Positions 8,346-38,807 of a DNA stretch of 55,128 nucleotides are shown one piece after another. Position 1 is the first letter of the stretch, and each line of letters begins with the position of its first letter. The position numbers and the translations under genes were made by a program. The notes beneath the pieces were generated by a model, which saw only the letters and a list, made by a program, of their open reading frames with translations, ran no database searches and was not told the DNA's origin. The stretch is from a virus (taxonomy: Duplodnaviria > Heunggongvirae > Uroviricota > Caudoviricetes). The stretch lies in the IMG/VR virus record IMGVR_UViG_2728369181_000005, one strand, 5' to 3'.

Positions 8346-8885
8346 ATGCAACCACTTACATACCAACAGACTAGCGGATTTAGCCCGACTGCGGTGATAA
8401 ATCGTTCTCAAACAAAACAGGTGCCAGGCCACGAAAAAATCCGTGATGCCGTCCGCGCCTGGTCGGCTGAAGATAATCAGGATGTTGTTGCCGCACTCAT
8501 TGTGAATGAGTATCGGGAGCAGGGCGGCGGCACCATCGATTTCCCTGATGATGTCAGCCGTGCACGCCAGAAGCTGTTCCGCTTCCTCGATAACAAATTC
8601 GATTCTGAAAAATACCGAAATAACGTGCGTGAACTGACCCCGGCAATTCTGGCGGTACTACCGCTGGACTATCGCGGCCACCTGGTTGAGCAGGATAGCT
8701 TCATGGCTCGGCTGGCTGAAATGGAAAAGGAACTCAGTGAGGCAAAGCAGGCGGTCATTCTCAACGCACCACGCCACCAGAAACTGAAGGAGATGAGTGA
8801 AGGCATTGTGTCGATGTTTCGAGTGGACCCGGATCTGGCTGGTCCATTGATGGCGATGGTCACCACCATGCTGGGGGCAATATGA
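8346..8885 (+). CDS. YdaT-like protein (occupies the cII position)
   Basis: 179 aa; EYREQGGG ... PAILAVLP motifs resemble Rac YdaT as recalled; immediately follows cro. Confidence 0.55.
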   Translation: MQPLTYQQTSGFSPTAVINRSQTKQVPGHEKIRDAVRAWSAEDNQDVVAALIVNEYREQGGGTIDFPDDVSRARQKLFRFLDNKFDSEKYRNNVRELTPAILAVLPLDYRGHLVEQDSFMARLAEMEKELSEAKQAVILNAPRHQKLKEMSEGIVSMFRVDPDLAGPLMAMVTTMLGAI

Positions 8886-8971
8886 CAGGTTCAAAAATGG
8901 TGAAAGTCGGTCTGCGGGAACAGAACCGACTTTCAGGTGCAAATCGTAACACACTCATTGCGGGAGGAATT

Positions 8972-9901
8972 ATGGCAAACACTGCTGAGATATTCAATTT
9001 TCCAGTGCCGGATGCGGCACAAAAGGAGCCGCGCGTGTCAGATCTCGATGATGGTTATACGCGCATTGCAAATGAGTTGCTGGAAGCTGTAATGCTGGCC
9101 GGATTAACACAGCACCAGCTTCTGGTCTTCCTGGCTGTCATGCGCAAAACATATGGCTTTAATAAAAAAATGGATTGGGTGAGCAACGAGCAACTTTCCG
9201 AGTTAACCGGGATATTGCCGCACAAGTGTTCTGCTGCAAAAAGTGTTCTGGTAAAGCGTGGGATTTTGATTCAGAGCGGGCGGAATATCGGCATTAATAA
9301 TGTGGTCAGTGAATGGTCAACATTACCCGAATCAGGTAAGAAAAATAAAGTTTACCTGAAAGAGGTAAAATTACCTGAATCAGGTAAGAAAAGTTTACCC
9401 AAATCAGGTAAAGGCGTTTACCCGAATCAGGTAAACACAAAAGACAAACTAACAAAAGACAATATAAAACCTTTTTCGTCCGAGAATTCTGACGAATCCT
9501 CTGACCAGCCAGAAAACGATCTTCCTGTGGTGAAACCGGATGCTGCAATTCAGAGCGGCAGCAAGTGGGGGACAGCAGAAGACCTGACCGCCGCAGAGTG
9601 GATGTTTGACATGGTGAAGACCATCGCGCCATCAGCCAGAAAACCGAATTTTGCAGGGTGGGCTAACGATATCCGCCTGATGCGTGAACGTGACGGACGT
9701 AACCACCGCGACATGTGTGTACTGTTCCGCTGGGCATGCCAGGACAACTTCTGGTCCGGTAACGTGCTGAGTCCGGCCAAACTCCGCGACAAGTGGACCC
9801 AGCTCGAAATCAACCGAAACAAGCAACAGGCTGGCGTGACAGCCGGCAAACCAAAACTCGACCTGACGAACACTGACTGGATTTACGGGGTGGAGCTATG
9901 A
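8972..9901 (+). CDS. O: Replication initiator O (hybrid: divergent N-terminus, lambda-identical C-terminus)
   Basis: GGGAGG SD before ATG 8972; N-terminus MANTAEIFNF parallels lambda O MTNTAKILNF; C-terminal ~110 aa match lambda O; iterons lie inside the gene. Confidence 0.9.
   Translation: MANTAEIFNFPVPDAAQKEPRVSDLDDGYTRIANELLEAVMLAGLTQHQLLVFLAVMRKTYGFNKKMDWVSNEQLSELTGILPHKCSAAKSVLVKRGILIQSGRNIGINNVVSEWSTLPESGKKNKVYLKEVKLPESGKKSLPKSGKGVYPNQVNTKDKLTKDNIKPFSSENSDESSDQPENDLPVVKPDAAIQSGSKWGTAEDLTAAEWMFDMVKTIAPSARKPNFAGWANDIRLMRERDGRNHRDMCVLFRWACQDNFWSGNVLSPAKLRDKWTQLEINRNKQQAGVTAGKPKLDLTNTDWIYGVEL
9320..9480. repeat. Replication origin iterons plus AT-rich flank inside O
   Basis: Four copies of TTACC(C/T)(G/A)AATCAGGTAA (9323-9340, 9371-9388, 9394-9411, 9417-9435) followed by an A-rich stretch; same architecture as ori-lambda. 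Confidence 0.85.
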
Positions 9902-10599
9902 AAAACATCGCCGCACAGATGGTTAACTTTGACCGTGAGCAGATGCGTCGGATCGCCAACAACATGCCGGAACAGTACGACGAAAAGCCGCAGGTACAAC
10001 AGGTAGCGCAGATCATCAATGGTGTGTTCAGCCAGTTACTGGCAACTTTCCCGGCGAGCCTGGCTAACCGGGACCAGAACGAACTGAACGAAATCCGCCG
10101 CCAGTGGGTGCTGGCTTTCCGGGAAAACGGGATCACCACAATGGAACAGGTTAACGCAGGAATGCGCGTAGCCCGTCGGCAGAATCGACCATTCCTGCCA
10201 TCACCCGGGCAGTTTGTTGCCTGGTGCCGGGAAGAAGCATCCGTTACCGCCGGGCTGCCAAACGCCAGCGAGCTGGTTGATATGGTTTACGAGTATTGCC
10301 GGAAGCGTGGCCTGTATCCGGACGCAGAGTCTTATCCATGGAAATCGAACGCGCACTACTGGCTGGTTACCAACCTGTACCAGAACATGCGAGCCAATGC
10401 GCTGACTGACGCGGAATTACGGCGCAAGGCTGCCGATGAACTGACCTGTATGACAGCGCGAATTAACCGTGGTGAGGCTATACCTGAACCAGTAAAACAA
10501 CTTCCTGTCATGGGCGGTAGACCTCTAAATCGTGCACAGGCTCTGGCGAAGATCGCAGAAATCAAAGCTAAGTTTGGGCTGAAAGGAGCAAGTGTATGA
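9898..10599 (+). CDS. P: Replication protein P (DnaB helicase loader)
   Basis: 233 aa, near-identical to lambda P (MKNIAAQMVNFDREQMRRIANNMPEQYDEKPQ...); ATGA overlap with O. Confidence 0.97.
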   Translation: MKNIAAQMVNFDREQMRRIANNMPEQYDEKPQVQQVAQIINGVFSQLLATFPASLANRDQNELNEIRRQWVLAFRENGITTMEQVNAGMRVARRQNRPFLPSPGQFVAWCREEASVTAGLPNASELVDMVYEYCRKRGLYPDAESYPWKSNAHYWLVTNLYQNMRANALTDAELRRKAADELTCMTARINRGEAIPEPVKQLPVMGGRPLNRAQALAKIAEIKAKFGLKGASV

Positions 10600-20889: not shown

Positions 20890-20960
20890 GATCCAACAGG
20901 TTACGGGGCGGCGACCTCGCGGGTTTTCGCTATTTATGAAAATTTTCCGGTTTAAGGCGT
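20890..20960. other. Prophage cos site (cosN 12-nt cohesive end at 20906-20917)
   Basis: CAGGTTACG|GGGCGGCGACCT|CGCGGGTTTTCGCTATTTATGAAAATTTTCCGG matches the lambda cohesive-end region, directly upstream of nu1. Confidence 0.9.
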
Positions 20961-21094: not shown

Positions 21095-21614
21095 ATGGAA
21101 GTCAACAAAAAGCAGCTGGCTGACATTTTCGGTGCGAGTATCCGTACCATTCAGAACTGGCAGGAACAGGGAATGCCCGTTCTGCGAGGCGGTGGCAAGG
21201 GTAATGAGGTGCTTTATGACTCTGCCGCCGTCATAAAATGGTATGCCGAAAGGGATGCTGAAATTGAGAACGAAAAGCTGCGCCGGGAGGTTGAAGAACT
21301 GCGGCAGGCCAGCGAGACAGATCTCCAGCCAGGGACTATTGAGTACGAACGCCATCGACTTACGCGTGCGCAGGCCGACGCACAGGAGCTGAAAAATGCC
21401 AGAGACTCCGCTGAAGTGGTGGAAACCGCATTCTGTACTTTCGTGCTTTCGCGGATCGCAGGTGAAATTGCCAGTATTCTCGACGGGATCCCCCTGTCGG
21501 TGCAGCGGCGTTTTCCGGAACTGGAAAACCGACATGTTGATTTCCTGAAACGGGATATCATCAAAGCCATGAACAAAGCAGCCGCGCTGGATGAACTGAT
21601 ACCGGGGTTGCTGA

Positions 21615-21640
<26 letters not shown>
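21095..21640 (+). CDS. nu1: Terminase small subunit Nu1
   Basis: 181 aa near-identical to lambda Nu1 (MEVNKKQLADIFGASIRTIQNWQEQGMPVLRGGGKGNEV...). Confidence 0.97.
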
Positions 21641-25332
<3,692 letters not shown>

Positions 25333-27048: not shown

Positions 27049-27293
27049 ATGTCGATGTTCACAACCGCCCAGCTGCTGGCGGCAAATGAGCAGAAATTTA
27101 AGTTTGATCCGCTGTTTCTGCGTCTCTTTTTCCGTGAAAGCTATCCCTTCACCACGGAGAAAGTCTATCTCTCACAAATTCCGGGACTGGTAAACATGGC
27201 GCTGTACGTTTCGCCGATTGTTTCCGGTGAGGTTATCCGCTCCCGTGGCGGCTCTACCTCCGAATTTACGCCGGGATATGTCAAGCCGAAGCA
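27049..27293 (+). pseudogene. E: Major capsid protein E, N-terminal fragment (gene split by island insertion)
   Basis: MSMFTTAQLLAANEQKFKFD...GYVKPKH matches the lambda gpE N-terminus, then reads into island DNA and stops at 27324. Confidence 0.9.
27284..27293. repeat. Left copy of 10-bp insertion core AGCCGAAGCA (attL core)
   Basis: Identical 10-mer at 38017-38026; the flanking bases differ, and joining the outer flanks restores a continuous E reading frame (VKPKHEVN). Confidence 0.8.
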
Positions 27294-27402
27294 CTTAGCA
27301 TGGCTTTCTGAGGCTTTCGTGTAGTTGCTGGTTTTTACACTTAATCTTTTGATAATAAAGAGTAAGTTTATCTGGCGCTTTCACTGGATTTTCCTCGTTA
27401 TC

Positions 27403-27441
27403 TGTGTGTTGCAATCATCTCTGTATTGCAGCTTGTATTGC
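27403..27441. repeat. TGT(A/G)TTGCA direct repeats at island left end (candidate integrase arm sites)
   Basis: TGTGTTGCAA, TGTATTGCAG, TGTATTGC within 39 bp just upstream of the island int start; same motif at 37920-37940. Confidence 0.5.
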
Positions 27442-27456
27442 TTTTTGGGGCTAAAA

Positions 27457-28692
27457 ATGGCTGGCGAGAACAAACTGAGCGACAAAGCACTTAAAGGATA
27501 TCTGGGGAAACCTAGAGAAAAGCAGATCACCATTGCTGATGGAAAGGGGCTTTCTATTCGTGTGAGTACCAAGGGGGCTGTGAGCTTTGTTTTCTTCTAC
27601 AGGTTAGCAGGTGGCCGGGCTGCTCCGGTCTGGCTAACGTTGGGTAAATATCCTGATATGTCACTCAAACAGGCAAGGGAAAAGCGCGACGAGTGCCGTG
27701 GTTGGTTGGCTGACAAACGTGATCCGCGTATTCAGATTAAGATTCAGGCTGAAGAACGCTTAAAGCCGGTCACAGTGGAGGATGCACTAAATTACTGGTA
27801 TGAAAATTACTGTAAGGTGCGTCGTAAAACTCATGCTGTAACGCTTGGCAGATTTCGAAAGCATATCTTTCCCTATATCGGTCATTTGCCCGTAAATGAC
27901 ACTCACCTATATGAATGGCTGGACTGTTTTGACCGAATTAAACGTAATGCACCAGTTATGGCGGCGTATGTTTTTTCTGACACTAAATTAGCTCTTCGTT
28001 TTTGTCGGGTACGCCAGTACGCGACGTGTGATGCTTTAAAGGATTTGCGCATGAGTGATGTGGGGCAGATTGCAGGTAAGCGGGATCGGGTTCTGGATGA
28101 AGCCGAACTGGGCCAGCTCTGGAAGGCAATTTTTGTCGAGCCTGATTTAAAACTAATGTCTGAATACACGCGAAAAATGTTTGTGCTTTGTACAGTATTT
28201 GGATGTCGAATGAGTGAAGCCCGATTATCAGAATGGAGCGAATGGGATCTAGAAAGTTGGGTTTGGACTGTACCGAAAGATCACTCAAAAACTGGTGTTG
28301 AAATTGTCAGGCCAGTACCTGAAATTCTACGGCAGTGGGTAACGGATGTTCACGAAGAGACAAAACATACTGGTTATGTGCTGGGAAGTCTGCGAATTAG
28401 AGAAAGCGTAAGCAAGATTGGGGGGAAAATCGGTAAACGTTTGGGCCATGAAAAACAATGGTCACTACACGACCTTAGAAGAACGCTATCTACTCATCTA
28501 AGTGATCTCGGTGTTGAATTTTATGTAGTAGAACAACTGTTAGGCCATGCGCTACCTGGCGTGGCAGGTGTTTACAACCGGAGTAAGTTTATGGCTAAAA
28601 AACTGGATGCTCTGGAACTCTGGACTACATATCTCAATAGCATCGCAGCTGCTGATTCAAAAGTGACAATCCTCAAACAAAAGGCTGGTTAG
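27457..28692 (+). CDS. int: Tyrosine integrase (P4-like family) of the island
   Basis: Start MAGENKLSDKALKGYLGKP...; C-terminal catalytic region with HDLRRT...LGH...Y; first gene at island left end. Confidence 0.88.
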   Translation: MAGENKLSDKALKGYLGKPREKQITIADGKGLSIRVSTKGAVSFVFFYRLAGGRAAPVWLTLGKYPDMSLKQAREKRDECRGWLADKRDPRIQIKIQAEERLKPVTVEDALNYWYENYCKVRRKTHAVTLGRFRKHIFPYIGHLPVNDTHLYEWLDCFDRIKRNAPVMAAYVFSDTKLALRFCRVRQYATCDALKDLRMSDVGQIAGKRDRVLDEAELGQLWKAIFVEPDLKLMSEYTRKMFVLCTVFGCRMSEARLSEWSEWDLESWVWTVPKDHSKTGVEIVRPVPEILRQWVTDVHEETKHTGYVLGSLRIRESVSKIGGKIGKRLGHEKQWSLHDLRRTLSTHLSDLGVEFYVVEQLLGHALPGVAGVYNRSKFMAKKLDALELWTTYLNSIAAADSKVTILKQKAG

Positions 28693-28693
28693 C

Positions 28694-28915
28694 ATGAAAA
28701 AAATGGCAATTGTTGATAAAAAGGGGCTGGAGTACATTCCTAACATTGACCGAATGATCCGTGAGAAAGAATGTCGGGAGCTAACCACTCTTGCGAACAG
28801 CACACGCTGGAAGCTTGAAAAGGAGGGGAAATTCCCCAAGCGAATCAAAATCGGATCTACGGCGGTGGCTTATAGACTCTCTGAGATTCAAGCTTGGATA
28901 AGAGGTGAATGGTAA
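28694..28915 (+). CDS. AlpA-family transcriptional regulator / excisionase-like
   Basis: 73 aa with AlpA-type HTH; directly follows the integrase. Confidence 0.7.
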   Translation: MKKMAIVDKKGLEYIPNIDRMIREKECRELTTLANSTRWKLEKEGKFPKRIKIGSTAVAYRLSEIQAWIRGEW

Positions 28916-28941
28916 GTTAGGGAGGTATTCCTCCCTATATC

Positions 28942-29625
28942 TTACAGGAAATTTTTTAAATCAGGGTTTTTTCCAAATGCGCTCTTATAATATACTGTTG
29001 CAATCTCGTTAAAAATAGTTTTTATATCATCGGTAACCACTATTGTTGCTACGCGCAAATCTTTTTGATATTCATTTAAATCTGGAGGGGTATAGTCCAA
29101 TAGCGTTGATTTATCCAAGATTAAATGTTCTAACATGGCATAGCGCTCAATCAATGTTTTATAAAAATGATATTGATTTTCACTGTTAGCATGTGCACAG
29201 TTTATTGCAAGTAAATACGTTATTTCATTATCTAGATGTGCACGGACAAGGCTTGTATAGGTTTTTTTACGATCTAGATCAAAGGGATGGTATCCAGCAT
29301 TTTCATCAATGAACTTCAATAGATGATATAATATTCTGAAGTAGCTTCCAAAAACAGCATCATGATTGTGCATCAGTGTATTAGTGTCTTTTAAAGAAAC
29401 CAATCCATTCATCATTTTATTAATTAACTCTGAGTAATTTGATTTTTTTCTAAGATCATTTAGAGCATTGTTATGTTGAGATAACATGAGAGAAAATGTT
29501 GATTCAAAAGATGATTGCTTTTTAGCAATTAATGCAACTAACACTGCTGTGCAAGTCCCGAGTGCCACGAAGAAATTTATAATGTTTGATGCAGTGAATA
29601 CAGCATCGTCAGGAGTTGGAGTCAT
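28942..29625 (-). CDS. Hypothetical AT-rich membrane-anchored protein (candidate accessory/defence gene)
   Basis: 227 aa; N-terminal hydrophobic helix FFVALGTCTAVLVALIA; very AT-rich; follows the small regulator at 29658-29852 on the same strand. Confidence 0.45.
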   Translation of the reverse strand: MTPTPDDAVFTASNIINFFVALGTCTAVLVALIAKKQSSFESTFSLMLSQHNNALNDLRKKSNYSELINKMMNGLVSLKDTNTLMHNHDAVFGSYFRILYHLLKFIDENAGYHPFDLDRKKTYTSLVRAHLDNEITYLLAINCAHANSENQYHFYKTLIERYAMLEHLILDKSTLLDYTPPDLNEYQKDLRVATIVVTDDIKTIFNEIATVYYKSAFGKNPDLKNFL

Positions 29626-29657
29626 TTGAATATCCTATTCAATAAAAATTAAAAAAA

Positions 29658-29852
29658 TTAGCCTTTAGGTTCTATACCTTTACGGCGAAGCTCAGCACGA
29701 ACTAATTCTTTAATCCAATTGGCCAAGCTCATTCCTTCCTGAGCTGCTGATTCAGCCATCTGTTCTTTGAGTTCAGGATTGATTCGGATCTGAAACGCAG
29801 GGGCTTTGCCGGCTCCTTTTGGCTGCTTATCTCTTTGAATTGTAGTTGACAT
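29658..29852 (-). CDS. Small ribbon-helix-helix-like DNA-binding protein
   Basis: 64 aa; FQIRINPELKEQMAESAAQEGMSLANWIKELV fits an RHH (Arc/CopG-like) pattern. Confidence 0.45.
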   Translation of the reverse strand: MSTTIQRDKQPKGAGKAPAFQIRINPELKEQMAESAAQEGMSLANWIKELVRAELRRKGIEPKG

Positions 29853-29988
29853 GTGTGTACCTATTGCTTAGCATCAGTGTTGAATAGGTACACACATTAA
29901 CATGATGTTATACCTATAAACAACGCCCTAGGGTGCTCGCAACACACCTAGGGCGTCTAACCACAAACCGTTAACTGGAGTAACGACT

Positions 29989-30354
29989 ATGGCTGGAACA
30001 CAGCATACCCAAACTCACCCTAAATTTATATACATCTTTCTGGCGCTACATCGCGATCGCATAGCAGATGGAGCAACTACGGTACATGTAGCCGCTGACA
30101 CGCTGGTTGATGCGCGCAAGATGGTTAAGGAGATGGGCTATACTGCGGCTTTCTGGAAAGGGCGGGAAGAAAACACGCTGTTTATTCAGAAATGTGAAAA
30201 CAATTTCATCTGGCGTTTTATCGCCCTGAGTACGGCACAACCGCGCGTGATTACCATCGAGGCCACCAGCGAACAGGAAGCCCGCCAGCAATCCCCAACT
30301 GGCTGCGTGATGATATTCGCCGCCCGTATTCGTCAGGAGGTGTGCCATGAATGA
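29989..30354 (+). CDS. Hypothetical protein (possibly Icd-like)
   Basis: 121-codon ORF at the start of the island rightward operon; Icd-like assignment is from memory and weak. Confidence 0.3.
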   Translation: MAGTQHTQTHPKFIYIFLALHRDRIADGATTVHVAADTLVDARKMVKEMGYTAAFWKGREENTLFIQKCENNFIWRFIALSTAQPRVITIEATSEQEARQQSPTGCVMIFAARIRQEVCHE

Positions 30355-30571
30355 TCTTTATTTTAAAGTGCTGACACATGCTGAAAACGCGCTCGTTTGT
30401 GGCAAAAATATGCGAGAAATCTTATCAACCTGGCTTGATGGGACAACAAATGCGGAACACGATGAACGGGATGCTAATTTAGCTGGAGCGTTAATTACGT
30501 TACTTGATCCTGTCATCAAAGAGTTGGATGAAGCTATAAAAATACACGACCAGAGCTATACCGGAGAATAA
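30347..30571 (+). CDS. Hypothetical protein
   Basis: 74-codon ORF overlapping neighbours. Confidence 0.35.
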   Translation: MNDLYFKVLTHAENALVCGKNMREILSTWLDGTTNAEHDERDANLAGALITLLDPVIKELDEAIKIHDQSYTGE

Positions 30572-30574
30572 AAA

Positions 30575-30862
30575 ATGAAAAATAAATTTTCTGGCTTTAT
30601 TGCCAGCGGTCAAACTCATTCAAAAATCAGCCTTGGGGATATTTTCAAAGACAGCTATGGCTATCGGGTAAAGATTATTTCGGTTGATGATCGTCGTGTC
30701 TCTTATTTGCGTGATGGTTATGATTTTGAATGTGTTATGCCGCGTCAGCAGTTCGAAAGAGATTTCATTCTGGTAAAAAATTGCAAGACAGATAATCAGA
30801 GGCGTGCCGCAGGCTATATCCGTAAAATTCGGGCAATGTTAGTTGCCGGAGGTAACAAATGA
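30575..30862 (+). CDS. Hypothetical protein
   Basis: 95-codon ORF; ATGA overlap with the primase gene. Confidence 0.35.
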   Translation: MKNKFSGFIASGQTHSKISLGDIFKDSYGYRVKIISVDDRRVSYLRDGYDFECVMPRQQFERDFILVKNCKTDNQRRAAGYIRKIRAMLVAGGNK

Positions 30863-32679
30863 AACGTGCTCCGAACTTAAAATACCAACCGCGCGACAAA
30901 ATGACGGAAGTCATCATTTTTGCTGGCAGTGATGCCTGGAGCCATGCAAAAGAATGGAATGAATGGGCAGGTAAGCATATTGCAGCAGATGATACACCAC
31001 CAGTCATTCTGGGTACGGAACAACTGGAAAACCTGGATGATATGCAAATTATCGATGAAGGCCGTCATTATGTGCGTGTTTATCGTGCCGGAAAGATTGC
31101 AGAGAAAAGTCTGACGAAGGTTGCGACATTACTTGCTATTGCAGGCGTAAAGGAAGCACGTTGTTACCGTAGCTTTGTTGATCGAGAGCCTGAAGACTGG
31201 ACTCCGCGCCTTGTCGGCCTAAAAGCTGAAGCGGAGCATGGGGAAAGTCTGGTGATTGAACTGCCAGTGAAGAAGGCAGAGCGCAAAAATGACGAGCGTG
31301 CTTCATCTTTGGCGTTGAATCAGATGGGGGCCAGCCAGCGCGGTGAAGTTCTCCTTGCACATTACGGCGGCGAACTGGCAATCAATGCCGACTCTGACAC
31401 CGTTCATCATTACAACGGCGTTGTATGGGAGCCGGTTCAGGATAAAGAGTTACAGCGTGCTATGGCGCAGATTTTCATTGATGCGGAGATCAGCTATTCG
31501 CAGAACGCTATTAAATCGGCGGTAGATACCATGAAGTTAAGTTTGCCTGTAATGGGGAATACAGCCCGTAACCTGATTGGATTCAGTAACGGGGTATTTG
31601 ATACCAGAACTGGTAATTTTCGGGAGCATAACAAAAACGACTGGTTGTTAATTGCCAGTGAATTACCTTTCAGCCCACCAGCAGAGGGGGAAACGCTGGC
31701 AACACATGCGCCGAATTTCTGGAAGTGGTTGCGCCGTTCGGTGGCTGATAATGACCGCAAGGCAGATCGCGTACTGGCGGCATTATTCATGGTGCTGGCG
31801 AACCGGTACGACTGGCAGTTATTCATTGAGGTAACAGGGCCGGGGGGAAGTGGTAAAAGTGTGATGGCGGAGATTTGCACCATGCTGGCGGGTAAGGCGA
31901 ATACAGTATCAGCAAGCATGAAGGCGCTGGAAGATGCAAGGGAACGTGCGTTAGTGGTTGGCTTTTCGCTGATTATCATGCCGGATATGACCCGCTACGC
32001 TGGTGATGGGGCAGGGATTAAGGCCATTACAGGCGGTGACAAGGTGGCAATTGACCCGAAACACAAAGCCCCCTATTCAACGCGTATTCCGGCAGTAGTG
32101 CTGGCGGTTAACAATAACGCCATGTCATTCAGTGACCGCAGCGGGGGGATCTCACGTCGTCGGGTGATATTCAATTTTTCGGAAGTTGTACCGGAGAACG
32201 AACGCGATTCGATGCTGGCGGAAAAAATAGAAGGTGAGCTGGCGGTAGTGATTCGCCATCTGCTTACACGGTTTGCTGATCAGGACGAAGCCAGACGCCT
32301 GTTATATGAGCAGCAGAAATCTGAAGAAGCACTGGCGATAAAGCGAGAGGGGGATTCGCTGGTGGACTTCTGCGGCTATCTCATGGCATCGGTAATGTGT
32401 GATGGCCTGTTAGTGGGTAATGCTGAAATTGTGCCATTCAGCCCACGCAGGTATCTCTATCATGCCTATCTGGCTTATATGAGGGCACATGGGTTTGGTA
32501 AACCTGTAACACTGACGCGCTTCGGTAAAGATATGCCGGGGGCAATGGCGGAATATGGCAGGGAGTATATGAAACGGAAAACGAAGCACGGTTTGCGTTC
32601 AAACGTGACACTGACGGAGGAATCAGAAGACTGGATGCCATCATGTGTATCGGTCACTAATGACGATAGCAAAAATTAA
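30859..32679 (+). CDS. Primase-helicase (P4 alpha-like replication protein)
   Basis: 606 aa; Walker A GPGGSGKS and Walker B-like FSLIIMPDM in the C-terminal half; followed by an iteron array. Confidence 0.85.
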   Translation: MKRAPNLKYQPRDKMTEVIIFAGSDAWSHAKEWNEWAGKHIAADDTPPVILGTEQLENLDDMQIIDEGRHYVRVYRAGKIAEKSLTKVATLLAIAGVKEARCYRSFVDREPEDWTPRLVGLKAEAEHGESLVIELPVKKAERKNDERASSLALNQMGASQRGEVLLAHYGGELAINADSDTVHHYNGVVWEPVQDKELQRAMAQIFIDAEISYSQNAIKSAVDTMKLSLPVMGNTARNLIGFSNGVFDTRTGNFREHNKNDWLLIASELPFSPPAEGETLATHAPNFWKWLRRSVADNDRKADRVLAALFMVLANRYDWQLFIEVTGPGGSGKSVMAEICTMLAGKANTVSASMKALEDARERALVVGFSLIIMPDMTRYAGDGAGIKAITGGDKVAIDPKHKAPYSTRIPAVVLAVNNNAMSFSDRSGGISRRRVIFNFSEVVPENERDSMLAEKIEGELAVVIRHLLTRFADQDEARRLLYEQQKSEEALAIKREGDSLVDFCGYLMASVMCDGLLVGNAEIVPFSPRRYLYHAYLAYMRAHGFGKPVTLTRFGKDMPGAMAEYGREYMKRKTKHGLRSNVTLTEESEDWMPSCVSVTNDDSKN

Positions 32680-32690
32680 ACTTATGGAAT

Positions 32691-32916
32691 AACTGTTCAC
32701 CACTGTTCACCCTGTCATAAATATCTTTTATATCAGTATATTATAGGGTGAACAGTTATTTATGAACTGTTCACCAAACTATTCACTGTTCACCTTTTTG
32801 ATTGTTTATTGAGCTTCAAGGGTGAACAGTGGTGAACAGTTGGTGAATAGTTTTTGTGAAACTGTTCACCCATTAACATTATGAATTAAAAGAGAAAATA
32901 TCAAAAGGTGAACAGG
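32691..32916. repeat. Island replication-origin iterons
   Basis: About ten copies of ACTGTTCACC / GGTGAACAGT in both orientations immediately after the primase stop. Confidence 0.8.
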
Positions 32917-32966
32917 TGAAGGGTTAAAACGCAAAAATTTTAATTTACTGCTGTGAGATAAAGCCT

Positions 32967-33212
32967 ATGACAGCGAAGCACACAAAAAAATCACAATCGC
33001 ACGCCCTTGATTTGACGGAACACTGGTTAAGGGTGTCGATAAAAATCATCGACCGCAACGCCGGGGAAGGATACGCGAAAGCACATCCCGAACTGATTAG
33101 CGCATTCATGACAACGGCGGCTGCAAACTTTGCCACTCTGACCGAACGGGAGATTGCTGAAGCGGAGGAAGTGACAACAATCAATATTAAGTCCGGAGAG
33201 CAGGCAGCATGA
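32967..33212 (+). CDS. Hypothetical protein
   Basis: 81-codon ORF after the iteron array. Confidence 0.35.
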   Translation: MTAKHTKKSQSHALDLTEHWLRVSIKIIDRNAGEGYAKAHPELISAFMTTAAANFATLTEREIAEAEEVTTINIKSGEQAA

Positions 33213-33658
33213 CGGCGCAAATATCAGTTTACGGGCGGTTGGTGGACGACCCGCAGACAAAACAGACCAGCAAGGGCACCCCCATGACGCTGGCGCGTAT
33301 GGCGGTATCACTGCCCTGCAGTCAGTCGGATGACGGTCAGGCGACGATGTGGTTATCTGTCCTGGCGTTTGGCAGACAAGCCGACGCACTGGCAAAGCAT
33401 CACAAAGGCGAACTCCTGAGCGTGGCGGGTAACATGCAGATGAGCCAGTGGACTGGACAGAACGGCGAAACGCGGCAGGGCTGGCAGGTTATCGCAGACA
33501 GCGTAATCAGTGCGCGATCGGTGCGACCGGGCGGCAAAAAAGGCCAACAGGGGCAGGCTACTGACGCACTGAACAGAGCAAAACAACAGGCAGATCAGCA
33601 AGGAAGCCAGCCACCAGTGGGAGATAATGAGCAATGGGGAGATGATATCCCGTTTTAA
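33209..33658 (+). CDS. Single-stranded DNA-binding protein (SSB-like)
   Basis: N-terminal OB-fold pattern ISVYGRLVDDP...ARMAVSL...WLSVLAFG; Gln/Gly-rich tail ending DDIPF. Confidence 0.7.
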   Translation: MTAQISVYGRLVDDPQTKQTSKGTPMTLARMAVSLPCSQSDDGQATMWLSVLAFGRQADALAKHHKGELLSVAGNMQMSQWTGQNGETRQGWQVIADSVISARSVRPGGKKGQQGQATDALNRAKQQADQQGSQPPVGDNEQWGDDIPF

Positions 33659-33875
33659 ATATTGCCAATAAAAAAAGGCCGGAAAAAATAAATTTTCCGG
33701 CATGCTACATAAATCCCGACCAAAGGGAGTGAAGATATTAACACTAATTGTCCGCACTGAAGTTGTCACCCCAAAACTTTATACAACATTGCACTTGGTT
33801 GCATGTGTTCGCATGACAAATATCGGTGGTAGCATATATCCACAATTATTTTTAATGAATGCAAAGAGGATGCGT

Positions 33876-34916
33876 ATGGTTGATTTATATTCGCCTACTC
33901 AGCTTGTACAGGTGGTTAATGCTGTAGATGTACAAAAACAACTAAATGCGTTGTTTACCAGTTTGTTTTTTACTCGCTCGGTAATGTTTGAATCGCGCGA
34001 TATTATTCTTGATACAATCGACGATCCAAATATCCCAATTGCAGCGTTTTGTTCTCCTATGGTGGGTAGTAAAGTTTCACGTGACGAAGGGTACGAATCA
34101 AAAACAATTCGTCCAGGCTATATGAAGCCGAAAAGCAGCATTGATCCAAATAAGTTAGCTGTGCGCCCTGCTGGTGTATCACCTGAGCAATACAATGCTT
34201 TTGGGGCGCGTAATATTAAAGTTAAACAGGCGATTGTAAATCAAGCTAAAGCTATTCGTGCACGTATTGAATGGCTTGCTGTTCAGGCAATCACAACGGG
34301 GAAAAATATCATTGAGGGCGATGGTATTGAACGTTATGAGCTGGACTGGAATATTAAACCACAAAATATCATCACTCAGTCTGGCGGTGCTGAGTGGTCA
34401 GGTAAGGATAAAGAAACTTTTGATCCAAATGATTATATTGAGAGCTACGCAGAATTTAGTGAGGGCGTCACTAATATTATCATTATGGGCGGTAATGTAT
34501 GGAAGAAATACCGTTCATTCAGAGCAATAAAAGAGGCTCTGGATACCCGTCGTGGTTCTAATTCCGAACTGGAAACGGCCCTTAAAGACCTTGGTGATTC
34601 GGTGAGTTTTAAAGGGTATATGGGCGATGTTGCGATTGTTGTTTACAGCGGGCGTTATACCGACGAGGACGGAACAGAAAAACATTTCCTTGATCCTGAT
34701 TTGATGGTGCTTGGCAATACGGCTCTTCAGGGGATTGTCGCCTATGGCGGTGTTCAGGATCCGGAGCTAATCCGAATGGGGCTGACTAAAGCCGAACTTG
34801 CACCGAAAAACTATATTGTGCCTGGTGATCCGGCTATTGAATATGTGCAGACACATTCAGCACCACAGCCAATACCGGCCCGCATCAATCGTTTTGTTAC
34901 CGTTCGCATTGGCTAA
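33876..34916 (+). CDS. Island-encoded major capsid protein (lambda gpE-like)
   Basis: AAGAGGA SD before ATG 33876; aligns with lambda E (GYMKPK vs GYVKPK; ITQSGGAEWSGKDKETFDPNDYIESYA; DTRRGSNSELETA; GDVAIVVYSG). Confidence 0.8.
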   Translation: MVDLYSPTQLVQVVNAVDVQKQLNALFTSLFFTRSVMFESRDIILDTIDDPNIPIAAFCSPMVGSKVSRDEGYESKTIRPGYMKPKSSIDPNKLAVRPAGVSPEQYNAFGARNIKVKQAIVNQAKAIRARIEWLAVQAITTGKNIIEGDGIERYELDWNIKPQNIITQSGGAEWSGKDKETFDPNDYIESYAEFSEGVTNIIIMGGNVWKKYRSFRAIKEALDTRRGSNSELETALKDLGDSVSFKGYMGDVAIVVYSGRYTDEDGTEKHFLDPDLMVLGNTALQGIVAYGGVQDPELIRMGLTKAELAPKNYIVPGDPAIEYVQTHSAPQPIPARINRFVTVRIG

Positions 34917-34925
34917 GGGGGAGCA

Positions 34926-35267
34926 ATGGCTACTCATTACACTGAACTCATGGCTGGCACTGAAGCACTGGTGACTACGCTGGGGATATTTTCAGCTAAT
35001 AAAGGGGTAATTCCTGCATTTACGCCACTGATGCAGGAAGATGCAACAGGTGCACTGGTGGTATGGGATGGTTCGAGCGTAGGTAAAGCGGTTTATGTTT
35101 CCGCTGTACAAATCGACACCGCGAAAAAAACACAGGCTCAGGTCTATAAGACAGGTGTCTTAAATGTTGATGCTCTGAACTGGCCTGAGTCTGTTAAAGA
35201 ACTGTCAGTAAAGGTTGCAGCGTTTGTTGGCTCAGGTATTTCTGTTCAGCCGCTGGCTCGTGTGTAA
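34926..35267 (+). CDS. Island-encoded decoration protein (lambda gpD-like)
   Basis: 113 aa; LVVWDGSSVGKAV parallels lambda [14 protein letters not shown]; same length class. Confidence 0.6.
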   Translation: MATHYTELMAGTEALVTTLGIFSANKGVIPAFTPLMQEDATGALVVWDGSSVGKAVYVSAVQIDTAKKTQAQVYKTGVLNVDALNWPESVKELSVKVAAFVGSGISVQPLARV

Positions 35268-35278
35268 AGGGGGATACA

Positions 35279-35662
35279 ATGCAGAATGATTACAATGACC
35301 TTAAGCCAATTGCCGAAATGATGTACCCGAATCCAGCTGTAGAGGAATTAAAAGCTATCGCTGACAAAATGTGTTTAAGCGAGCGCCTTGTTGATATGAA
35401 TCAGGTGATGGAAATTACAACCCTGAGTCGTCGTACACTGCTAAACCTTGAGGCTAGTGGAGAGTTCCCGGAGCGTGTGCAGGTTACGGAAGGGCGTAAG
35501 GCCTGGTATTTAAGTGAAGTGATCGACTGGATAAATAATATTCCTCGCGCTTCTGAATATTGCCGCGTACCTGTCCCAAAAAAGCCAGATGCGGCGCTAT
35601 GCCTCAAGATTGAGCGTGTACGCCGCAATGCACGGGATGGTCGCTATAAGCTGATTGGTTGA
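35279..35662 (+). CDS. AlpA-type HTH domain protein (possible packaging/regulatory factor)
   Basis: 127 aa; C-terminal half carries an AlpA-like HTH (MNQVMEITTLSRRTLLNLEASGEFPERV). Confidence 0.5.
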   Translation: MQNDYNDLKPIAEMMYPNPAVEELKAIADKMCLSERLVDMNQVMEITTLSRRTLLNLEASGEFPERVQVTEGRKAWYLSEVIDWINNIPRASEYCRVPVPKKPDAALCLKIERVRRNARDGRYKLIG

Positions 35663-35689
35663 TGAAATTAGGGCCCGCTCTGGCTGGCG

Positions 35690-35770
35690 GGTCCTTTCCG
35701 GTGATCCAGAACGTTACGGGGCGTCAGGCGCGCGGGTTTTCGCTATTTATGAGCATTTTAAGGGGACTGG
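35690..35770. other. Island cos-like site with divergent cosN core (35718-35729)
   Basis: GGTCCTTTCCGGTGATCCAGAACGTTACG|GGGCGTCAGGCG|CGCGGGTTTTCGCTATTTATGA: flanks match the prophage cos, the 12-nt core differs at about five positions. Confidence 0.7.
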
Positions 35771-35878
35771 TGGTGGTTTTGTTGTTCGCTATATCTGTAT
35801 GAATAATAAGAGAAAAATACAATCAATACACCAACCTGAAACAGTAATTAAGTTGTGGTATCAATGAAATTACACCTG

Positions 35879-36406
35879 ATGAACAAAAAAAACATGGCAA
35901 AAAGTTGCCGTGTAAGCGCCACTGCGTTCGATAAGTGGGGAGTGATTCCCGTCGAGCGTAAGGGCCGTGAGGCGTTCTATGATGTTGCCAGTGTAATAGA
36001 TAATCGGGTTAACAATGCAATCAGCCAGATTACAAACGAAACGGGCGATATTGATGACGATGAACTTTTACGCGTCAGGATCAGATTACTGACAGCACAG
36101 GCAGAGGCGCAGGAGCTTAAAAACGAGCGCGAACGCGGCGACGTTATTGATACAGAGTTTTGTATGTATGTTCTTTCCAAACTGGCGAGTCAGATTTCAT
36201 CTATCATGGACAGCCTGCCGCTTACCATGCAAAGGCGCTTCCCACAGATGACTCCGGCTATGCTGGATGGACTTAAAAAGGAAGTGGCTAAAGCCTGTAA
36301 TGCCAGTGCCGGCGTTGCTGACAACCTCCCACAGATACTGGCTGATTATCTGATGGAAAGTACAGGAAACGTACCGGATAAGTTGCAGCTGAATAAGGAT
36401 AAGTAA
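35879..36406 (+). CDS. Island small terminase (Nu1-like, diverged)
   Basis: Aligns with lambda Nu1 (VIPVERKGREAFYDV vs MPVLRGGGKGNEVLYD; AQAEAQELKNERERGDVIDTEFC vs AQADAQELKNARDSAEVVETAFC); start codon choice (35864/35879/35894) uncertain. Confidence 0.7.
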   Translation: MNKKNMAKSCRVSATAFDKWGVIPVERKGREAFYDVASVIDNRVNNAISQITNETGDIDDDELLRVRIRLLTAQAEAQELKNERERGDVIDTEFCMYVLSKLASQISSIMDSLPLTMQRRFPQMTPAMLDGLKKEVAKACNASAGVADNLPQILADYLMESTGNVPDKLQLNKDK

Positions 36407-36417
36407 CGTAGTACGCT

Positions 36418-36693
36418 ATGACTGAATCCGAACTACTGAAAGTAATCTGCCATGCTGGTGGAGTCAGCCACCAGCATGACGAACAGGCCACGCAGCCGGG
36501 CAGTGTCACCGCTGAAAATTACGCTCGTGTGGTTGCTGAGGTTATGTGGCGTGACGGTATAGAACTGAACGGACAGGATTGCTTAGTCATCCGCACCAAA
36601 GTGCTGGCTATACTGGCAGCTAGGCGGAGGCAGGGACAACGCCAGAACGTTGCATCGTACCAGTGGAAGAAGCCTGACAGACTGCGGCGATAA
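36418..36693 (+). CDS. Hypothetical protein
   Basis: 91-codon ORF following the TerS-like gene. Confidence 0.35.
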   Translation: MTESELLKVICHAGGVSHQHDEQATQPGSVTAENYARVVAEVMWRDGIELNGQDCLVIRTKVLAILAARRRQGQRQNVASYQWKKPDRLRR

Positions 36694-37095
36694 CTCTTTG
36701 ATTTTCTCGACGGCCCCAAAATGGGCCTTACCATAGCCAGCTAATAAATGAGCAAGCCTCAAAAGTGAGGTTTGTGGCCGTTTGGCCTATTCATATGCTA
36801 ACTCGTTGATATTCCTGACGACGCAAATTTACGCCTTGTGGCTGGTAGTCGAATTGCAAATTTGCAACTCGACTATGAAACTACAGGTAGTTTGGGTAGT
36901 AAAAGCAACACACTGATTTTGGGGCTTCTTCGCGATACCTAATATTATGGTATCGGTGGAAGAGATATCGTTTCTCATAGGTTAGCACCGAGGGCGGAGT
37001 TCCGCCCTCATCGAAAAATTGCTTACGAGTCGTCAAAATAAATTAATCGACTGAGTATAATGATTAACTAATTGCTCGTGTTACTTCATTATACG

Positions 37096-37857
37096 TTATT
37101 TCCCATCTTTAAGGTTTAACCAAGTGTTAATTAAAAAAAGAGCCATTGAGCCTGATAAATTTACTGCAAGTTCGGCATGCCTTGGGGATGGCTTAATTGA
37201 TGAGCTGTTCGTTCCATGTGCATCACCGAGTTTATTACGAAGAGTACCTAACCCATTTACAACTGCAGAACAACCGCCGAGAATTTGTTTGAAGATATTT
37301 TCAGTATGTTGGTCGGCAGATAGGTTAAGTTCTTTTGAAAGAGTTTTATAAAGCTCTGACATTTCAATATTTTTATTATTATACTGAATGCCCATATCAT
37401 CAAGAATGTGTTTGCAAACTGTTTCAAGAAGTGTTCTTGCGGAGGTTATCGCACCATCCGGATCTGTATGGCGCCGTTCAAGTGCTTTTATCCAAACGGC
37501 GTGGACTCCATCCTCGTTAAACTTTCTTAATACATCAGATATGTCTTCATCCGCTGGAGCTTTATTTTTCCCTTCTAGATAGTCCAGCATCGGCTGAAAT
37601 GCCTTATAAATCAAATCTCTCCGGGGGGCATACTTTTCAGTCTTTTTTATAAATCCCCAAAATTCTTTTAGTGAGCGATTAGTTCTCACAAACTCTGGTA
37701 ATAGCTGATGTAAAGGAGGATTTTGTAAGAAATATGTTCTTAGAAGCAAATAATCATTATTAGCTTCATCCTGGGCTCCTGTAGCTCTTGCAATTAGTAT
37801 GTTTTGAAGCGCTACTGCGCGCTCTAGGTCATTTTGAAGGGTATCTATAATATTCAT
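37096..37857 (-). CDS. Abortive-infection-like protein (Abi_C/HEPN-type motif)
   Basis: 253 aa, AT-rich, opposite strand at the island right end; C-terminal GTLRNKLGDAHG (R-x6-H) matches the Abi_C/HEPN signature as recalled. Confidence 0.6.
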   Translation of the reverse strand: MNIIDTLQNDLERAVALQNILIARATGAQDEANNDYLLLRTYFLQNPPLHQLLPEFVRTNRSLKEFWGFIKKTEKYAPRRDLIYKAFQPMLDYLEGKNKAPADEDISDVLRKFNEDGVHAVWIKALERRHTDPDGAITSARTLLETVCKHILDDMGIQYNNKNIEMSELYKTLSKELNLSADQHTENIFKQILGGCSAVVNGLGTLRNKLGDAHGTNSSSIKPSPRHAELAVNLSGSMALFLINTWLNLKDGK

Positions 37858-37919
37858 AACAAATCTTTATTCACTTCATTTGTGGGTTGATAATTGAATG
37901 GTTTGTACATTGATTTCTG

Positions 37920-37940
37920 TGTATTGCAGTGTGTATTGCA
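37920..37940. repeat. TGTATTGCA direct repeats at island right end
   Basis: TGTATTGCAG and TGTATTGCA, same orientation as the left-end copies. Confidence 0.5.
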
Positions 37941-38016
37941 ACATAGCCATTCAGGTAGAGATTATGCTCTATTTTTCCTCTTATATCATTCACATACTTA
38001 CACCATTGACTCATGT

Positions 38017-38026
38017 AGCCGAAGCA
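38017..38026. repeat. Right copy of 10-bp insertion core AGCCGAAGCA (attR core)
   Basis: Identical to 27284-27293. Confidence 0.8.
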
Positions 38027-38807
38027 TGAGGTGAATCCGCAGATGACCCTGCGTCGCCTGCCGGATGAAGATCCACAGAATCTGGCGGATCCGGCTTACC
38101 GTCGCCGTCGCATCATCATGCAGAACATGCGTGACGAAGAGCTGGCCATTGCCCAGGTCGAAGAGATGCAGGCAGTTTCTGCCGTGCTTAAGGGCAAATA
38201 CACCATGACCGGTGAAGCCTTCGATCCGGTTGAGGTGGATATGGGCCGCAGTGCGGCGAACAACATCACGCAGTCCGGCGGTACGGAGTGGAGCAAGCGT
38301 GACAAGTCCACGTATGACCCGACCGACGATATCGAAGCCTACGCGCTGAACGCCAGCGGTGTGGTGAATATCATCGTGTTCGATCCGAAAGGCTGGGCGC
38401 TGTTCCGTTCCTTCAAAGCCGTCAGGGAGAAGCTGGATACCCGTCGCGGCTCTCATTCTGAGCTGGAGACAGCGGTGAAAGACCTGGGTAAAGCGGTGTC
38501 CTATAAGGGGATGTATGGCGATGTGGCCATCGTCGTGTATTCCGGACAGTACGTGGAAAACGGTGTCAAAAAGAACTTCCTGCCGGACAACACGATGGTG
38601 CTTGGGAACACTCAGGCACGCGGTCTGCGCACCTATGGCTGTATTCAGGATGCGGATGCATTGAGTGAGGGTATTAATGCGTCTCCCCGTTATCCGAAAA
38701 ACTGGAAGACATCCGGCGATCCGGCGCGTGAGTTCACCATGATTCAGTCAGCACCGCTGATGCTGCTGGCTGATCCTGATGAGTTCGTGTCCGTACAACT
38801 GGCGTAA
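38020..38807 (+). pseudogene. E: Major capsid protein E, C-terminal fragment
   Basis: PKHEVNPQMTLRRLPDEDPQNL... to ...DEFVSVQLA matches lambda gpE from residue ~83 onward; no start of its own. Confidence 0.9.

What the first reader, a model, noticed from the sequence alone, without database searches (positions are those of the whole stretch)
37096..37857. AT-rich cargo gene at the island right end with an Abi_C/HEPN-like motif
The 253-aa protein is encoded antisense to the island's packaging operon, in very AT-rich DNA next to the att junction, a typical location for satellite-borne defence cargo. Its C-terminus carries GTLRNKLGDAHG, an R-x6-H arrangement like the HEPN/Abi_C signature of abortive-infection RNases.
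Basis: partly seen in the sequence, partly recalled or inferred. Interest (0 to 1): 0.65.

Follow-up and report, generated by a model that had tools for sequence, protein, structure and literature searches.

The report
Satellite-borne Abi_C/HEPN abortive-infection gene
The gene is real and encodes a predicted RNA-cutting "abortive infection" protein carried as swappable cargo at the end of a small phage satellite that sits inside its helper prophage's capsid gene; it is a new member of a known defence family, not a new kind of system.

Summary
The ORF 37096-37857 (-) encodes 253 aa, has 38% GC, runs antisense to the island's capsid/TerS operon and starts 159 bp from attR.

- Pfam Abi_C matches at E=1.3e-23.
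- R207, N208, D212 and H214 (RNxxGDAH) are invariant in 35 homologues. The spacing matches RNEYGDAH of S. aureus SadR, where R/N/H mutants lose RNase activity and defence.

The protein has two modules. An unnamed ~100-aa helical N-terminal domain is found elsewhere fused to TIR or kinase effectors. The C-terminal ~150 aa form the HEPN domain. There is no conserved partner gene, and dN/dS is about 0.09.

The island is a known helper-embedded PICI of the "11capE" type, inserted in lambda-like capsid gene E. Its right end is a cargo hotspot:
- 41 of 174 such E. coli islands carry this gene.
- 31 carry a PD-T4-2/NsnA-like DUF262+HEPN pair there instead.
- Homologues end other PICIs and cf-PICIs, or sit beside SIR2 or type I R-M genes.

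RefSeq already names it "abortive infection family protein". The phenotype, trigger and RNA target are untested. Verdict: new member of a known kind, of modest interest.

The parts
37096..37857 (-). Abi_C/HEPN gene, 253 aa (RefSeq WP_001021158.1, 'abortive infection family protein')
   Evidence: ORF; Pfam Abi_C E=1.3e-23; RefSeq annotation; 100% identical in 41 complete E. coli genomes; dN/dS 0.085 against the Klebsiella homologue
37558..37857 (-). N-terminal ~100-aa all-helical domain (aa 1-100), presumed sensor/regulatory module
37108..37557 (-). HEPN domain (aa ~101-250); the Pfam Abi_C core is aa 168-243 = 37129-37356
37216..37239 (-). Predicted catalytic motif R207-N208-K-L-G-D212-A-H214 (RNxxGDAH)
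   Evidence: R207, N208, D212 and H214 are invariant in 35 homologues. The spacing and the G-D-A-H are the same as RNEYGDAH in SadR, whose R225A, N226A and H232A mutants lose RNase activity and defence (PMC13590631).
37961..37989 (-). Promoter-like -35/-10 (ATGATA-17-CATAAT) upstream of the gene
   Evidence: Consensus scan. Not above chance for the region (4 found, 3.8 expected), so tentative.
37920..37940 (+). Two TGTATTGCA repeats between the gene start and attR; likely integrase arm-type sites
   Evidence: A matching cluster lies at 27405-27442 upstream of int. Function is inferred.
37010..38016 (.). Extent of the cargo cassette (gene plus its 5' region), between the conserved backbone element and attR
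   Evidence: Similarity to a sister PICI that lacks the gene (L011) ends at 37009. The attR core starts at 38017.
38017..38026 (+). attR core AGCCGAAGCA (twin attL core at 27284-27293), inside lambda-like capsid gene E
   Evidence: It matches the 10-bp identity block reported for HE-PICI Eco567.11capE (PMC10111431).
27294..38016 (+). The carrier: a ~10.7-kb helper-embedded PICI. Genes: int 27457-28692, alpA 28694-28915, putAbiC (-) 28942-29625, D5-type primase 30859-32679, SSB 33209-33658, capsid E-like 33876-34916, decoration 34926-35267, AlpA-like HTH 35279-35662, Nu1-type TerS 35864-36406, orf91 36418-36693
   Evidence: RefSeq annotation of an identical locus; Pfam

Best explanation
The gene encodes a single-protein abortive-infection/defence RNase of the Abi_C (AbiJ-type) branch of the HEPN superfamily. 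It is carried as exchangeable cargo by a helper-embedded phage satellite.

Shown here:
- The protein has two modules: an unnamed ~100-aa helical N-terminal domain and a ~150-aa HEPN domain with an invariant RNxxGDAH motif.
- It has no conserved partner gene and is under strong purifying selection.
- It occupies a cargo hotspot that in sister islands holds a known defence system.

Inferred:
- It is transcribed from its own promoter in the lysogen, independently of and antisense to the satellite and helper late operons.
- The N-terminal domain keeps the HEPN domain inactive until a phage-derived cue is sensed. For AbiJ and SadR, escape mutations map to phage single-strand-annealing proteins.
- HEPN domains then cleave RNA without a metal cofactor, using R207, N208 and H214, probably across a dimer interface.
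- Translation stops and the competing phage is aborted, which protects the satellite, its helper prophage and the clonal host population.
For: - Profiles: Pfam Abi_C E=1.3e-23, 83 bits against a cut-off of 24. The PADLOC AbiJ model matches its C-terminal part at E=2e-21.
- Conservation: R207, N208, D212 and H214 are invariant, together with a conserved face on the first HEPN helix (R141, E145, K149, D153).
- Characterised relatives: SadR, an Abi_C protein with RNEYGDAH, is an RNase that blocks phages and plasmids, and its R/N/H mutants are dead (PMC13590631). AbiJ escape mutants map to an SSAP (PMC13064643). Taranis, also Abi_C, defends in V. cholerae (bioRxiv 2024.07.02.601686).
- Modularity: the same N-terminal domain is fused to TIR or kinase effectors in other proteins.
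- Selection: dN/dS is 0.085.
- Hotspot: 174 E. coli genomes carry this integrase in gene E. Of these, 41 have this gene and 31 have a PD-T4-2/NsnA-like DUF262+HEPN pair at the same place. Sister PICIs have nothing or a PerC-like gene there.
- Homologue contexts: homologues are the terminal gene of Klebsiella and Enterobacter PICIs and cf-PICIs next to fis, or neighbours of SIR2_2 or a type I R-M system.
Against: - No experiment exists for this protein or its close subfamily. No paper cites WP_001021158.
- The N-terminal domain is unlike those of canonical AbiJ, so the trigger cannot be transferred from AbiJ or SadR. No AbiJ_NTD3/4/5 hit was found, and the PADLOC AbiJ and NCBIfam STM4504 models match only the C-terminal part.
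- Foldseek against the PDB gave nothing significant.
- The AF2 confidence around the motif is only 53-70.
- The promoter call is not above chance.
- The helper prophage itself encodes a RecT-family SSAP. This would be awkward if SSAPs were the trigger.
Confidence: 0.72

Rival explanations
1. The HEPN toxin serves the satellite rather than host immunity. It could be an addiction or stabilisation toxin, or an interference factor that degrades helper (or host) RNA during induction to bias packaging towards the satellite.
For: HEPN toxins act in toxin-antitoxin modules (PMC3710099; PMC13064643). The gene lies in a satellite embedded in its helper, next to attP in the excised form (L014). Satellites are known to interfere with helpers (established knowledge of PICIs).
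Against: No antitoxin-like neighbour is conserved across loci. Only 41 of 174 islands of this type carry the gene. Close homologues sit outside satellites, in chromosomal defence islets and on plasmids of many phyla. The gene is antisense to the late operon, so it is not co-expressed with packaging genes.
Confidence: 0.13
2. It is an active RNase with a non-defence regulatory or RNA-processing role for the island or host, or it is a ligand-binding, non-catalytic HEPN protein.
Against: The catalytic R/N/H are invariant. The Abi_C relatives that have been tested are defence RNases. The N-terminal domain is shared with TIR and kinase immune-type effectors. The location is a defence hotspot.
Confidence: 0.08
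3. It is a decaying or inert hitch-hiker: an AT-rich foreign gene that happens to be intact.
For: Low GC and silent annotation; there are no expression data.
Against: dN/dS is 0.085 at dS about 1. The gene is intact and identical in 41 genomes from diverse sources. There are 5746 homologous clusters with conserved length.
Confidence: 0.04

Closest known systems
SadR (Staphylococcus aureus defensive RNase; Abi_C protein; PMC13590631)
   Same: Single-gene system carried on a mobile element (SCCmec). It has an Abi_C domain and a catalytic motif of identical spacing and near-identical sequence (RNEYGDAH against RNKLGDAH). It falls in the 'no recognised NTD' class.
   Different: Different phylum. 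SadR's RNase activity and its anti-phage and anti-plasmid phenotypes are demonstrated; none are for this protein. An SSAP escape mutant is known for SadR only.
AbiJ / Abi-859 (Lactococcus lactis), as modelled in PADLOC and DefenseFinder
   Same: C-terminal Abi_C HEPN domain (PADLOC AbiJ model positions 162-274 of 281, E=2e-21). Single-gene abortive-infection architecture of N-terminal domain plus HEPN.
   Different: The N-terminal ~130 residues do not match the AbiJ model. No AbiJ_NTD3/4/5 Pfam hit was found. NCBIfam STM4504/CBY_0614 (the NTD4 type) scores 17 bits against a cut-off of 150.
Taranis (Vibrio cholerae chromosomal-integron cassette; bioRxiv 2024.07.02.601686)
   Same: A stand-alone Abi_C protein validated as anti-phage and carried as a small mobile cassette.
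   Different: The Taranis N-terminus is reported as distantly AbiJ_NTD5-like, and this protein has no NTD5 match. The carrier is an integron cassette rather than a satellite.
PD-T4-2 / NsnA-like DUF262 + HEPN pair (cargo of NRG857c island Eco567.11capE)
   Same: It occupies the same antisense position just inside attR of the same helper-embedded PICI family, and it also uses a HEPN effector.
   Different: It is a two-gene system with a DUF262 (GmrSD-type) partner. Its HEPN is of a different family. That island variant also lacks terS and orf91.
HepS (Gifsy-1 prophage HEPN that binds the lambda J tail tip; PDB 9oik)
   Different: The similarity is distant and only at fold level. It has no Abi_C signature and a different accessory region.
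Helper-embedded PICI Eco567.11capE (Barth, Nguyen & Williams 2023, PMC10111431)
   Same: The carrier island has the same integrase clade (98% nt identity), the same target (lambda-like gene E), the same 10-bp identity block and the same gene order.
   Different: The right-end cargo differs: Abi_C here, DUF262+HEPN in the type island. That paper does not discuss cargo or defence genes.

Membership tests
HEPN superfamily | All-alpha up-down helical-bundle HEPN fold | tested here: met
HEPN superfamily | Conserved R-x4-6-H motif with a polar residue after R | tested here: met
   R207-N208-x3-D212-x-H214 is invariant in 35 homologues of 58-86% identity. The bare motif alone would occur by chance about once per protein.
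HEPN superfamily | Metal-independent RNase activity | not testable with these tools
   Needs purified protein. Shown for the Abi_C relative SadR.
Pfam Abi_C (PF14355) | Score above the gathering threshold over the whole model | tested here: met
   83.3 bits against a cut-off of 24, model positions 2-82 of 83, aa 168-243. All 35 homologues match.
AbiJ sensu stricto (PADLOC AbiJ model; AbiJ_NTD3/4/5 architectures) | Full-length match including an AbiJ N-terminal domain | tested here: not met
   The PADLOC AbiJ model aligns only at positions 162-274 of 281. No AbiJ_NTD3/4/5 hit at E<=1 in any of 35 homologues. NCBIfam STM4504/CBY_0614 scores 17 bits against a cut-off of 150. AbiJ-NTD1 and NTD2 of Anantharaman 2013 have no model here and could not be tested.
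AbiJ / Abi_C defence systems | Confers phage resistance, or abortive infection, when expressed | not testable with these tools
   No experimental report was found for this protein.
Satellite (PICI) accessory/defence cargo | Lies in a region that varies between otherwise similar islands, outside the replication and packaging modules, next to att | tested here: met
   The cassette 37010-38016 is absent from sister PICIs. It is replaced by a PD-T4-2/NsnA-like pair in 31 genomes. The gene is present in 41 of 174 islands with this integrase.
Satellite (PICI) accessory/defence cargo | The same gene family recurs as cargo of unrelated satellites or defence islands | tested here: met
   It is the terminal gene of Klebsiella and Enterobacter PICIs and cf-PICIs at fis. 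It lies beside SIR2_2 or a type I R-M system.
Toxin-antitoxin (HEPN-MNT or type III) module | A conserved adjacent antitoxin gene or repeat RNA | tested here: not met
   Downstream ORFs differ between loci and none is shared with the window. There is no Rfam hit and no tandem array in the flanks.
Helper-embedded PICI (11capE type) - the carrier | Tyrosine integrase targeting lambda-like gene E with a 10-bp identity block, PICI gene order, co-oriented with the helper late operon | tested here: met
   compared with PMC10111431.

The most novel reading that the evidence does not exclude
The unnamed ~100-aa N-terminal helical domain may be a portable phage-sensing or autoinhibitory module shared by HEPN, TIR and kinase effectors. 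In a helper-embedded satellite, the toxin's antisense placement just inside attR may also matter. Helper late transcription reads through the co-oriented island, and Int binds the adjacent arm sites. Either could shut the gene off when the satellite's own helper is induced. The RNase would then spare its helper, which itself encodes a RecT-type SSAP, while aborting competitor phages. That would be cis-wired self/non-self discrimination.
Probability: 0.12. Interest if true: 0.7.

Novelty: new member of a known kind. Interest (0 to 1): 0.35.

Why it matters
This gives a concrete, easily cloned candidate (762 bp, single gene) for an Enterobacterial Abi_C defence RNase whose N-terminal module is not covered by any Pfam model. 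It shows that helper-embedded PICIs, so far described only for their integration strategy, have a defence-cargo hotspot with at least two alternative HEPN-based occupants, plus a second Abi-like gene (putAbiC) at the left end. It also raises a testable question: how does a satellite that lives inside its helper carry an abortive-infection toxin without killing that helper's productive cycle? The biology is otherwise expected. PICIs are known to carry immune systems, and Abi_C proteins are known to be defence RNases.

Tried and rejected
- Foldseek of the full model against the PDB gave no significant match. The best E was 0.33, although Csm6 and HEPN entries ranked at the top.
- phmmer and profile hmmsearch against PDB sequences gave only spurious hits, so no Abi_C relative has a solved structure detectable by sequence.
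- A type III or RNA antitoxin was looked for. Rfam gave nothing, and no repeat array or conserved small downstream ORF was found.
- The terminator and promoter scans were not above chance.
- The phage collection holds no full-length copy in deposited phage genomes. There are four partial or distant hits, one of them an ESSI2-type phage 'abortive infection family protein' at 28% identity.
- Literature: the Cell 2022 PICI-immunity paper is not held. One broad search was uninformative. The accession search returned nothing. The Enterobacter PICI paper does not mention Abi. The supplement of the 2013 HEPN survey is not held as text, so AbiJ-NTD1 and NTD2 could not be compared.
- I first described the island as 'cf-PICI-like'. 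I dropped this because it has only capsid, decoration, AlpA-like and TerS genes, and matches the published GN-PICI/HE-PICI layout instead.

Full report
**1. The observation**

An ATG-initiated ORF of 253 codons lies at 37096-37857 on the minus strand. Homologues start at the same residues (MNIIDTLQNDLERA...), which supports the start codon. The peptide GTLRNKLGDAHG is at residues 204-215, window 37213-37248.

The gene has 38.2% GC (GC3 28.7%). The rest of the island has 45.4% and the prophage DNA to its right has 57%. All neighbouring island genes are on the plus strand: lambda-E-like capsid, head-decoration protein, an AlpA-like HTH protein, a Nu1-type small terminase and a 91-aa ORF. The gene is therefore antisense to the packaging operon.

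A 10-bp direct repeat, AGCCGAAGCA, occurs exactly twice in the window, at 27284-27293 and 38017-38026. None of 100 shuffles gave two copies. The right copy is 159 bp from the start codon.

One caveat concerns the motif. An R-x4-6-H spacing is expected about once by chance in a protein of this composition, so the motif only counts together with the evidence below.

**2. What the protein is**

*Profile matches.*
- Pfam Abi_C (PF14355) matches residues 168-243 over essentially the whole model, at 83.3 bits against a gathering score of 24 (E=1.3e-23).
- The PADLOC AbiJ model matches only through its C-terminal part, positions 162-274 of 281.
- The NCBIfam STM4504/CBY_0614 model scores far below its cut-off.
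- PHROG 23253 (unknown function) matches full length.
- RefSeq already names the product 'abortive infection family protein', WP_001021158.1.

*Family and conserved residues.* The family is large, with 5746 clusters at E<=1e-3. Full-length relatives of 58-86% identity occur in Klebsiella, Pectobacterium, Pantoea, Enterobacter, Serratia and even Methylococcaceae. Relatives of 40-57% identity lie on plasmids of Vibrio, Burkholderia, Pseudomonas, alphaproteobacteria and Paenibacillus.

In an alignment of 35 members, R207, N208, D212 and H214 (RNxxGDAH) are invariant. So is a set of residues on the preceding helices: R128, R129, D132, T138, R141, E145, K149 and D153.

- further down, the defence HEPNs LsoA, AbiA, Csm6, AbiV and HepS.

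Foldseek against the PDB was not significant. No solved structure is detectable by sequence.

A profile of this domain finds 1313 representatives at the 50% cluster level. In several of them it is followed by a TIR_2 domain, a CAP12/Pycsar-type TIR domain or a protein-kinase domain instead of HEPN. Conversely, residues 100-246 occur with other N-termini on Rhizobium plasmids.

The protein is therefore a two-module 'N-terminal domain + effector' protein. This is the architecture that Anantharaman et al. 2013 described for AbiJ-family proteins (PMC3710099). Its N-terminal domain may correspond to their AbiJ-NTD1 or NTD2, which have no model here, so I could not test this.

*Selection.* Selection is strongly purifying: dN/dS is 0.085 against the 86%-identical Klebsiella gene. 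In more distant comparisons the N-terminal part changes about 2.5-3 times faster than the HEPN part.

**3. Partner genes**

No neighbour is conserved. The small ORFs downstream of homologues differ from locus to locus, and none is shared with the window. Rfam finds nothing, and there is no repeat array. This is a single-gene module.

**4. Where it sits**

*The carrier.* The gene is the last gene of a ~10.7-kb island (27294-38016). The island carries int, alpA, a D5-type primase, SSB, an E-like capsid gene, a D-like decoration gene, an AlpA-like HTH gene and a Nu1-type terS.

The island interrupts the lambda-type major capsid gene E of a lambdoid prophage. The left E fragment ends at ...GTCAAGCCGAAGCA, and the right fragment resumes at AGCCGAAGCATGAGGTGAATCCG. 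This is the 'helper-embedded PICI' configuration described for Eco567.11capE in E. coli NRG857c, including the 10-bp identity block (PMC10111431). That paper does not discuss cargo or defence genes.

*Occupancy of the right end.* Among 5426 complete E. coli genomes:
- 174 carry this integrase at gene E;
- 41 carry the Abi_C gene, all 100% identical and always next to the E fragment;
- 31 carry a different cassette at the same position and in the same antisense orientation.

In the type island of NRG857c, that other cassette is a DUF262 protein plus a HEPN protein. These match PADLOC NsnA (E=2e-59) and PD-T4-2_A/B.

*Cassette boundaries.* Sister PICIs share the packaging module but integrate at tRNA-Pro or at the cspD/clpS locus. 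After terS/orf91 they have nothing, or a PerC-like gene. Similarity to one of them continues through a non-coding element (36799-37009) and then stops. This delimits the cassette to about 37010-38016.

*Contexts of homologues.*
- They are the terminal, outward-facing gene of Klebsiella PICIs and of an Enterobacter cf-PICI next to fis.
- One metagenomic contig joins the int end to the Abi end, as expected for the excised or concatemeric form.
- Other homologues lie beside a SIR2_2 gene and an IS element, or beside a type I R-M system.

Together these contexts support the reading 'exchangeable defence cargo'.

**5. How it most likely works**

*Shown.* The domain composition, the invariant catalytic-type residues, solo gene status, purifying selection and hotspot location.

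*Taken from characterised relatives.*
- S. aureus SadR is an Abi_C protein with RNEYGDAH. It degrades RNA and blocks phages and plasmids, and R225A, N226A and H232A abolish both activities.
- Lactococcal AbiJ escape mutants also map to an SSAP (PMC13064643).
- V. cholerae Taranis is another Abi_C defence protein.

*Inferred.*
- The gene is expressed from its own promoter in the lysogen. A -35/-10-like site lies at 37989-37961, but it is not above chance.
- The N-terminal domain holds the HEPN domain inactive until infection.
- Activation leads to RNA cleavage through R207, N208 and H214, and to abortive infection.

The trigger and the RNA target are unknown, and the N-terminal domain differs from canonical AbiJ.

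The helper prophage in this window itself encodes a YqaJ exonuclease and a RecT-family SSAP (3013-4475). If SSAPs were the trigger, the helper's own protein would have to be tolerated, or the gene silenced during helper induction.

**6. Rivals**

- *Satellite-serving addiction or interference toxin.* This is disfavoured by the lack of an antitoxin, by presence in only 41 of 174 islands, and by the many non-satellite contexts.
- *Non-catalytic or regulatory HEPN.* This is disfavoured by the invariant R/N/H.
- *Inert hitch-hiker.* This is excluded by dN/dS.

**7. Comparison and membership**

The protein is a member of the HEPN superfamily (fold and motif both met) and of Pfam Abi_C. It is not a full-length member of the AbiJ models that could be tested: the PADLOC AbiJ model and the NTD3/4/5 and STM4504 types were not met. 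It works like SadR, AbiJ and Taranis. The carrier is a member of the published HE-PICI class.

**8. Verdict**

The finding is a new, untested member of a known defence family in a known type of satellite, and it is already generically annotated. Three elements are mildly new:
- a defence-cargo hotspot in helper-embedded PICIs, with alternative HEPN-based occupants;
- a second Abi-like gene (putAbiC) at the island's left end;
- an unnamed N-terminal module shared with TIR and kinase effectors.

Interest is 0.35.

Noticed in passing
window 28942-29625 (-): A second antisense, AT-rich cargo ORF lies just right of int-alpA. It is 227 aa as the longest ORF, and RefSeq aa. It matches Pfam putAbiC (PF16872, E=2.8e-16, above the cut-off) and weakly matches PADLOC AbiC/AbiP. 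The island therefore carries Abi-like genes at both accessory positions.
   Followed up: partly
window 27284-27293 and 38017-38026; E fragments 27050-27293 and 38017-38807: The ~10.7-kb satellite is inserted inside the lambda-type major capsid gene E of its helper prophage and carries its own E- and D-like genes. This is the published helper-embedded PICI (11capE) configuration. 174 of 5426 complete E. coli genomes have it.
   Followed up: yes
L016 (E. coli NRG857c) 21136-23110: The type HE-PICI lacks terS, orf91 and the Abi_C gene. In their place it has a small ORF plus an antisense HEPN + DUF262 pair that matches PADLOC NsnA and PD-T4-2. 31 genomes share this cassette.
   Followed up: partly
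window 36799-37009: A non-coding backbone element holds a 30-nt near-perfect palindrome (36846-36875) and a GC hairpin GAGGGCGGAGTTCCGCCCTC (36990-37009). It is 79% conserved in a sister PICI that lacks the Abi gene. It may be the satellite's cos or packaging site, or an operator.
   Followed up: no
window 27405-27442 and 37920-37940: Clusters of TGTATTGCA-type repeats lie near both island ends and are likely integrase arm-type sites. The right cluster lies between the Abi start codon and attR, downstream of the promoter-like site.
   Followed up: no
window 5556-7132 (-): An AT-rich pair lies between the recombination genes and the CI-like repressor (7252-8007), at the rexAB-equivalent position of the helper prophage. 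It consists of DUF3037 (5556-6398) and a HipA_2 kinase (6380-7132), and matches PADLOC candidate system PDC-M66 A/B at E about 1e-15.
   Followed up: partly
window 1-1143, 3013-4475, 8882-10599, 20906-20917: The helper prophage appears complete. It has a lambda-type integrase, a YqaJ exonuclease, a RecT-family SSAP, O/P replication genes and an exact lambda cosN sequence, GGGCGGCGACCT. The SSAP is relevant because AbiJ and SadR escape mutants map to SSAPs.
   Followed up: no
P0135, P0139, P0187, P0197, P0218, P0256 (representative proteins): The ~100-aa N-terminal domain of the Abi_C protein is found fused to TIR_2, CAP12/Pycsar TIR or a protein-kinase domain instead of HEPN. Several other fusion partners have no Pfam match.
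   Followed up: partly
L014 (JGI metagenome contig, 16.3 kb): A cf-PICI contig places the integrase end directly next to the Abi_C homologue. This is consistent with a circular or concatemeric excised form, with the Abi gene adjacent to attP.
   Followed up: no
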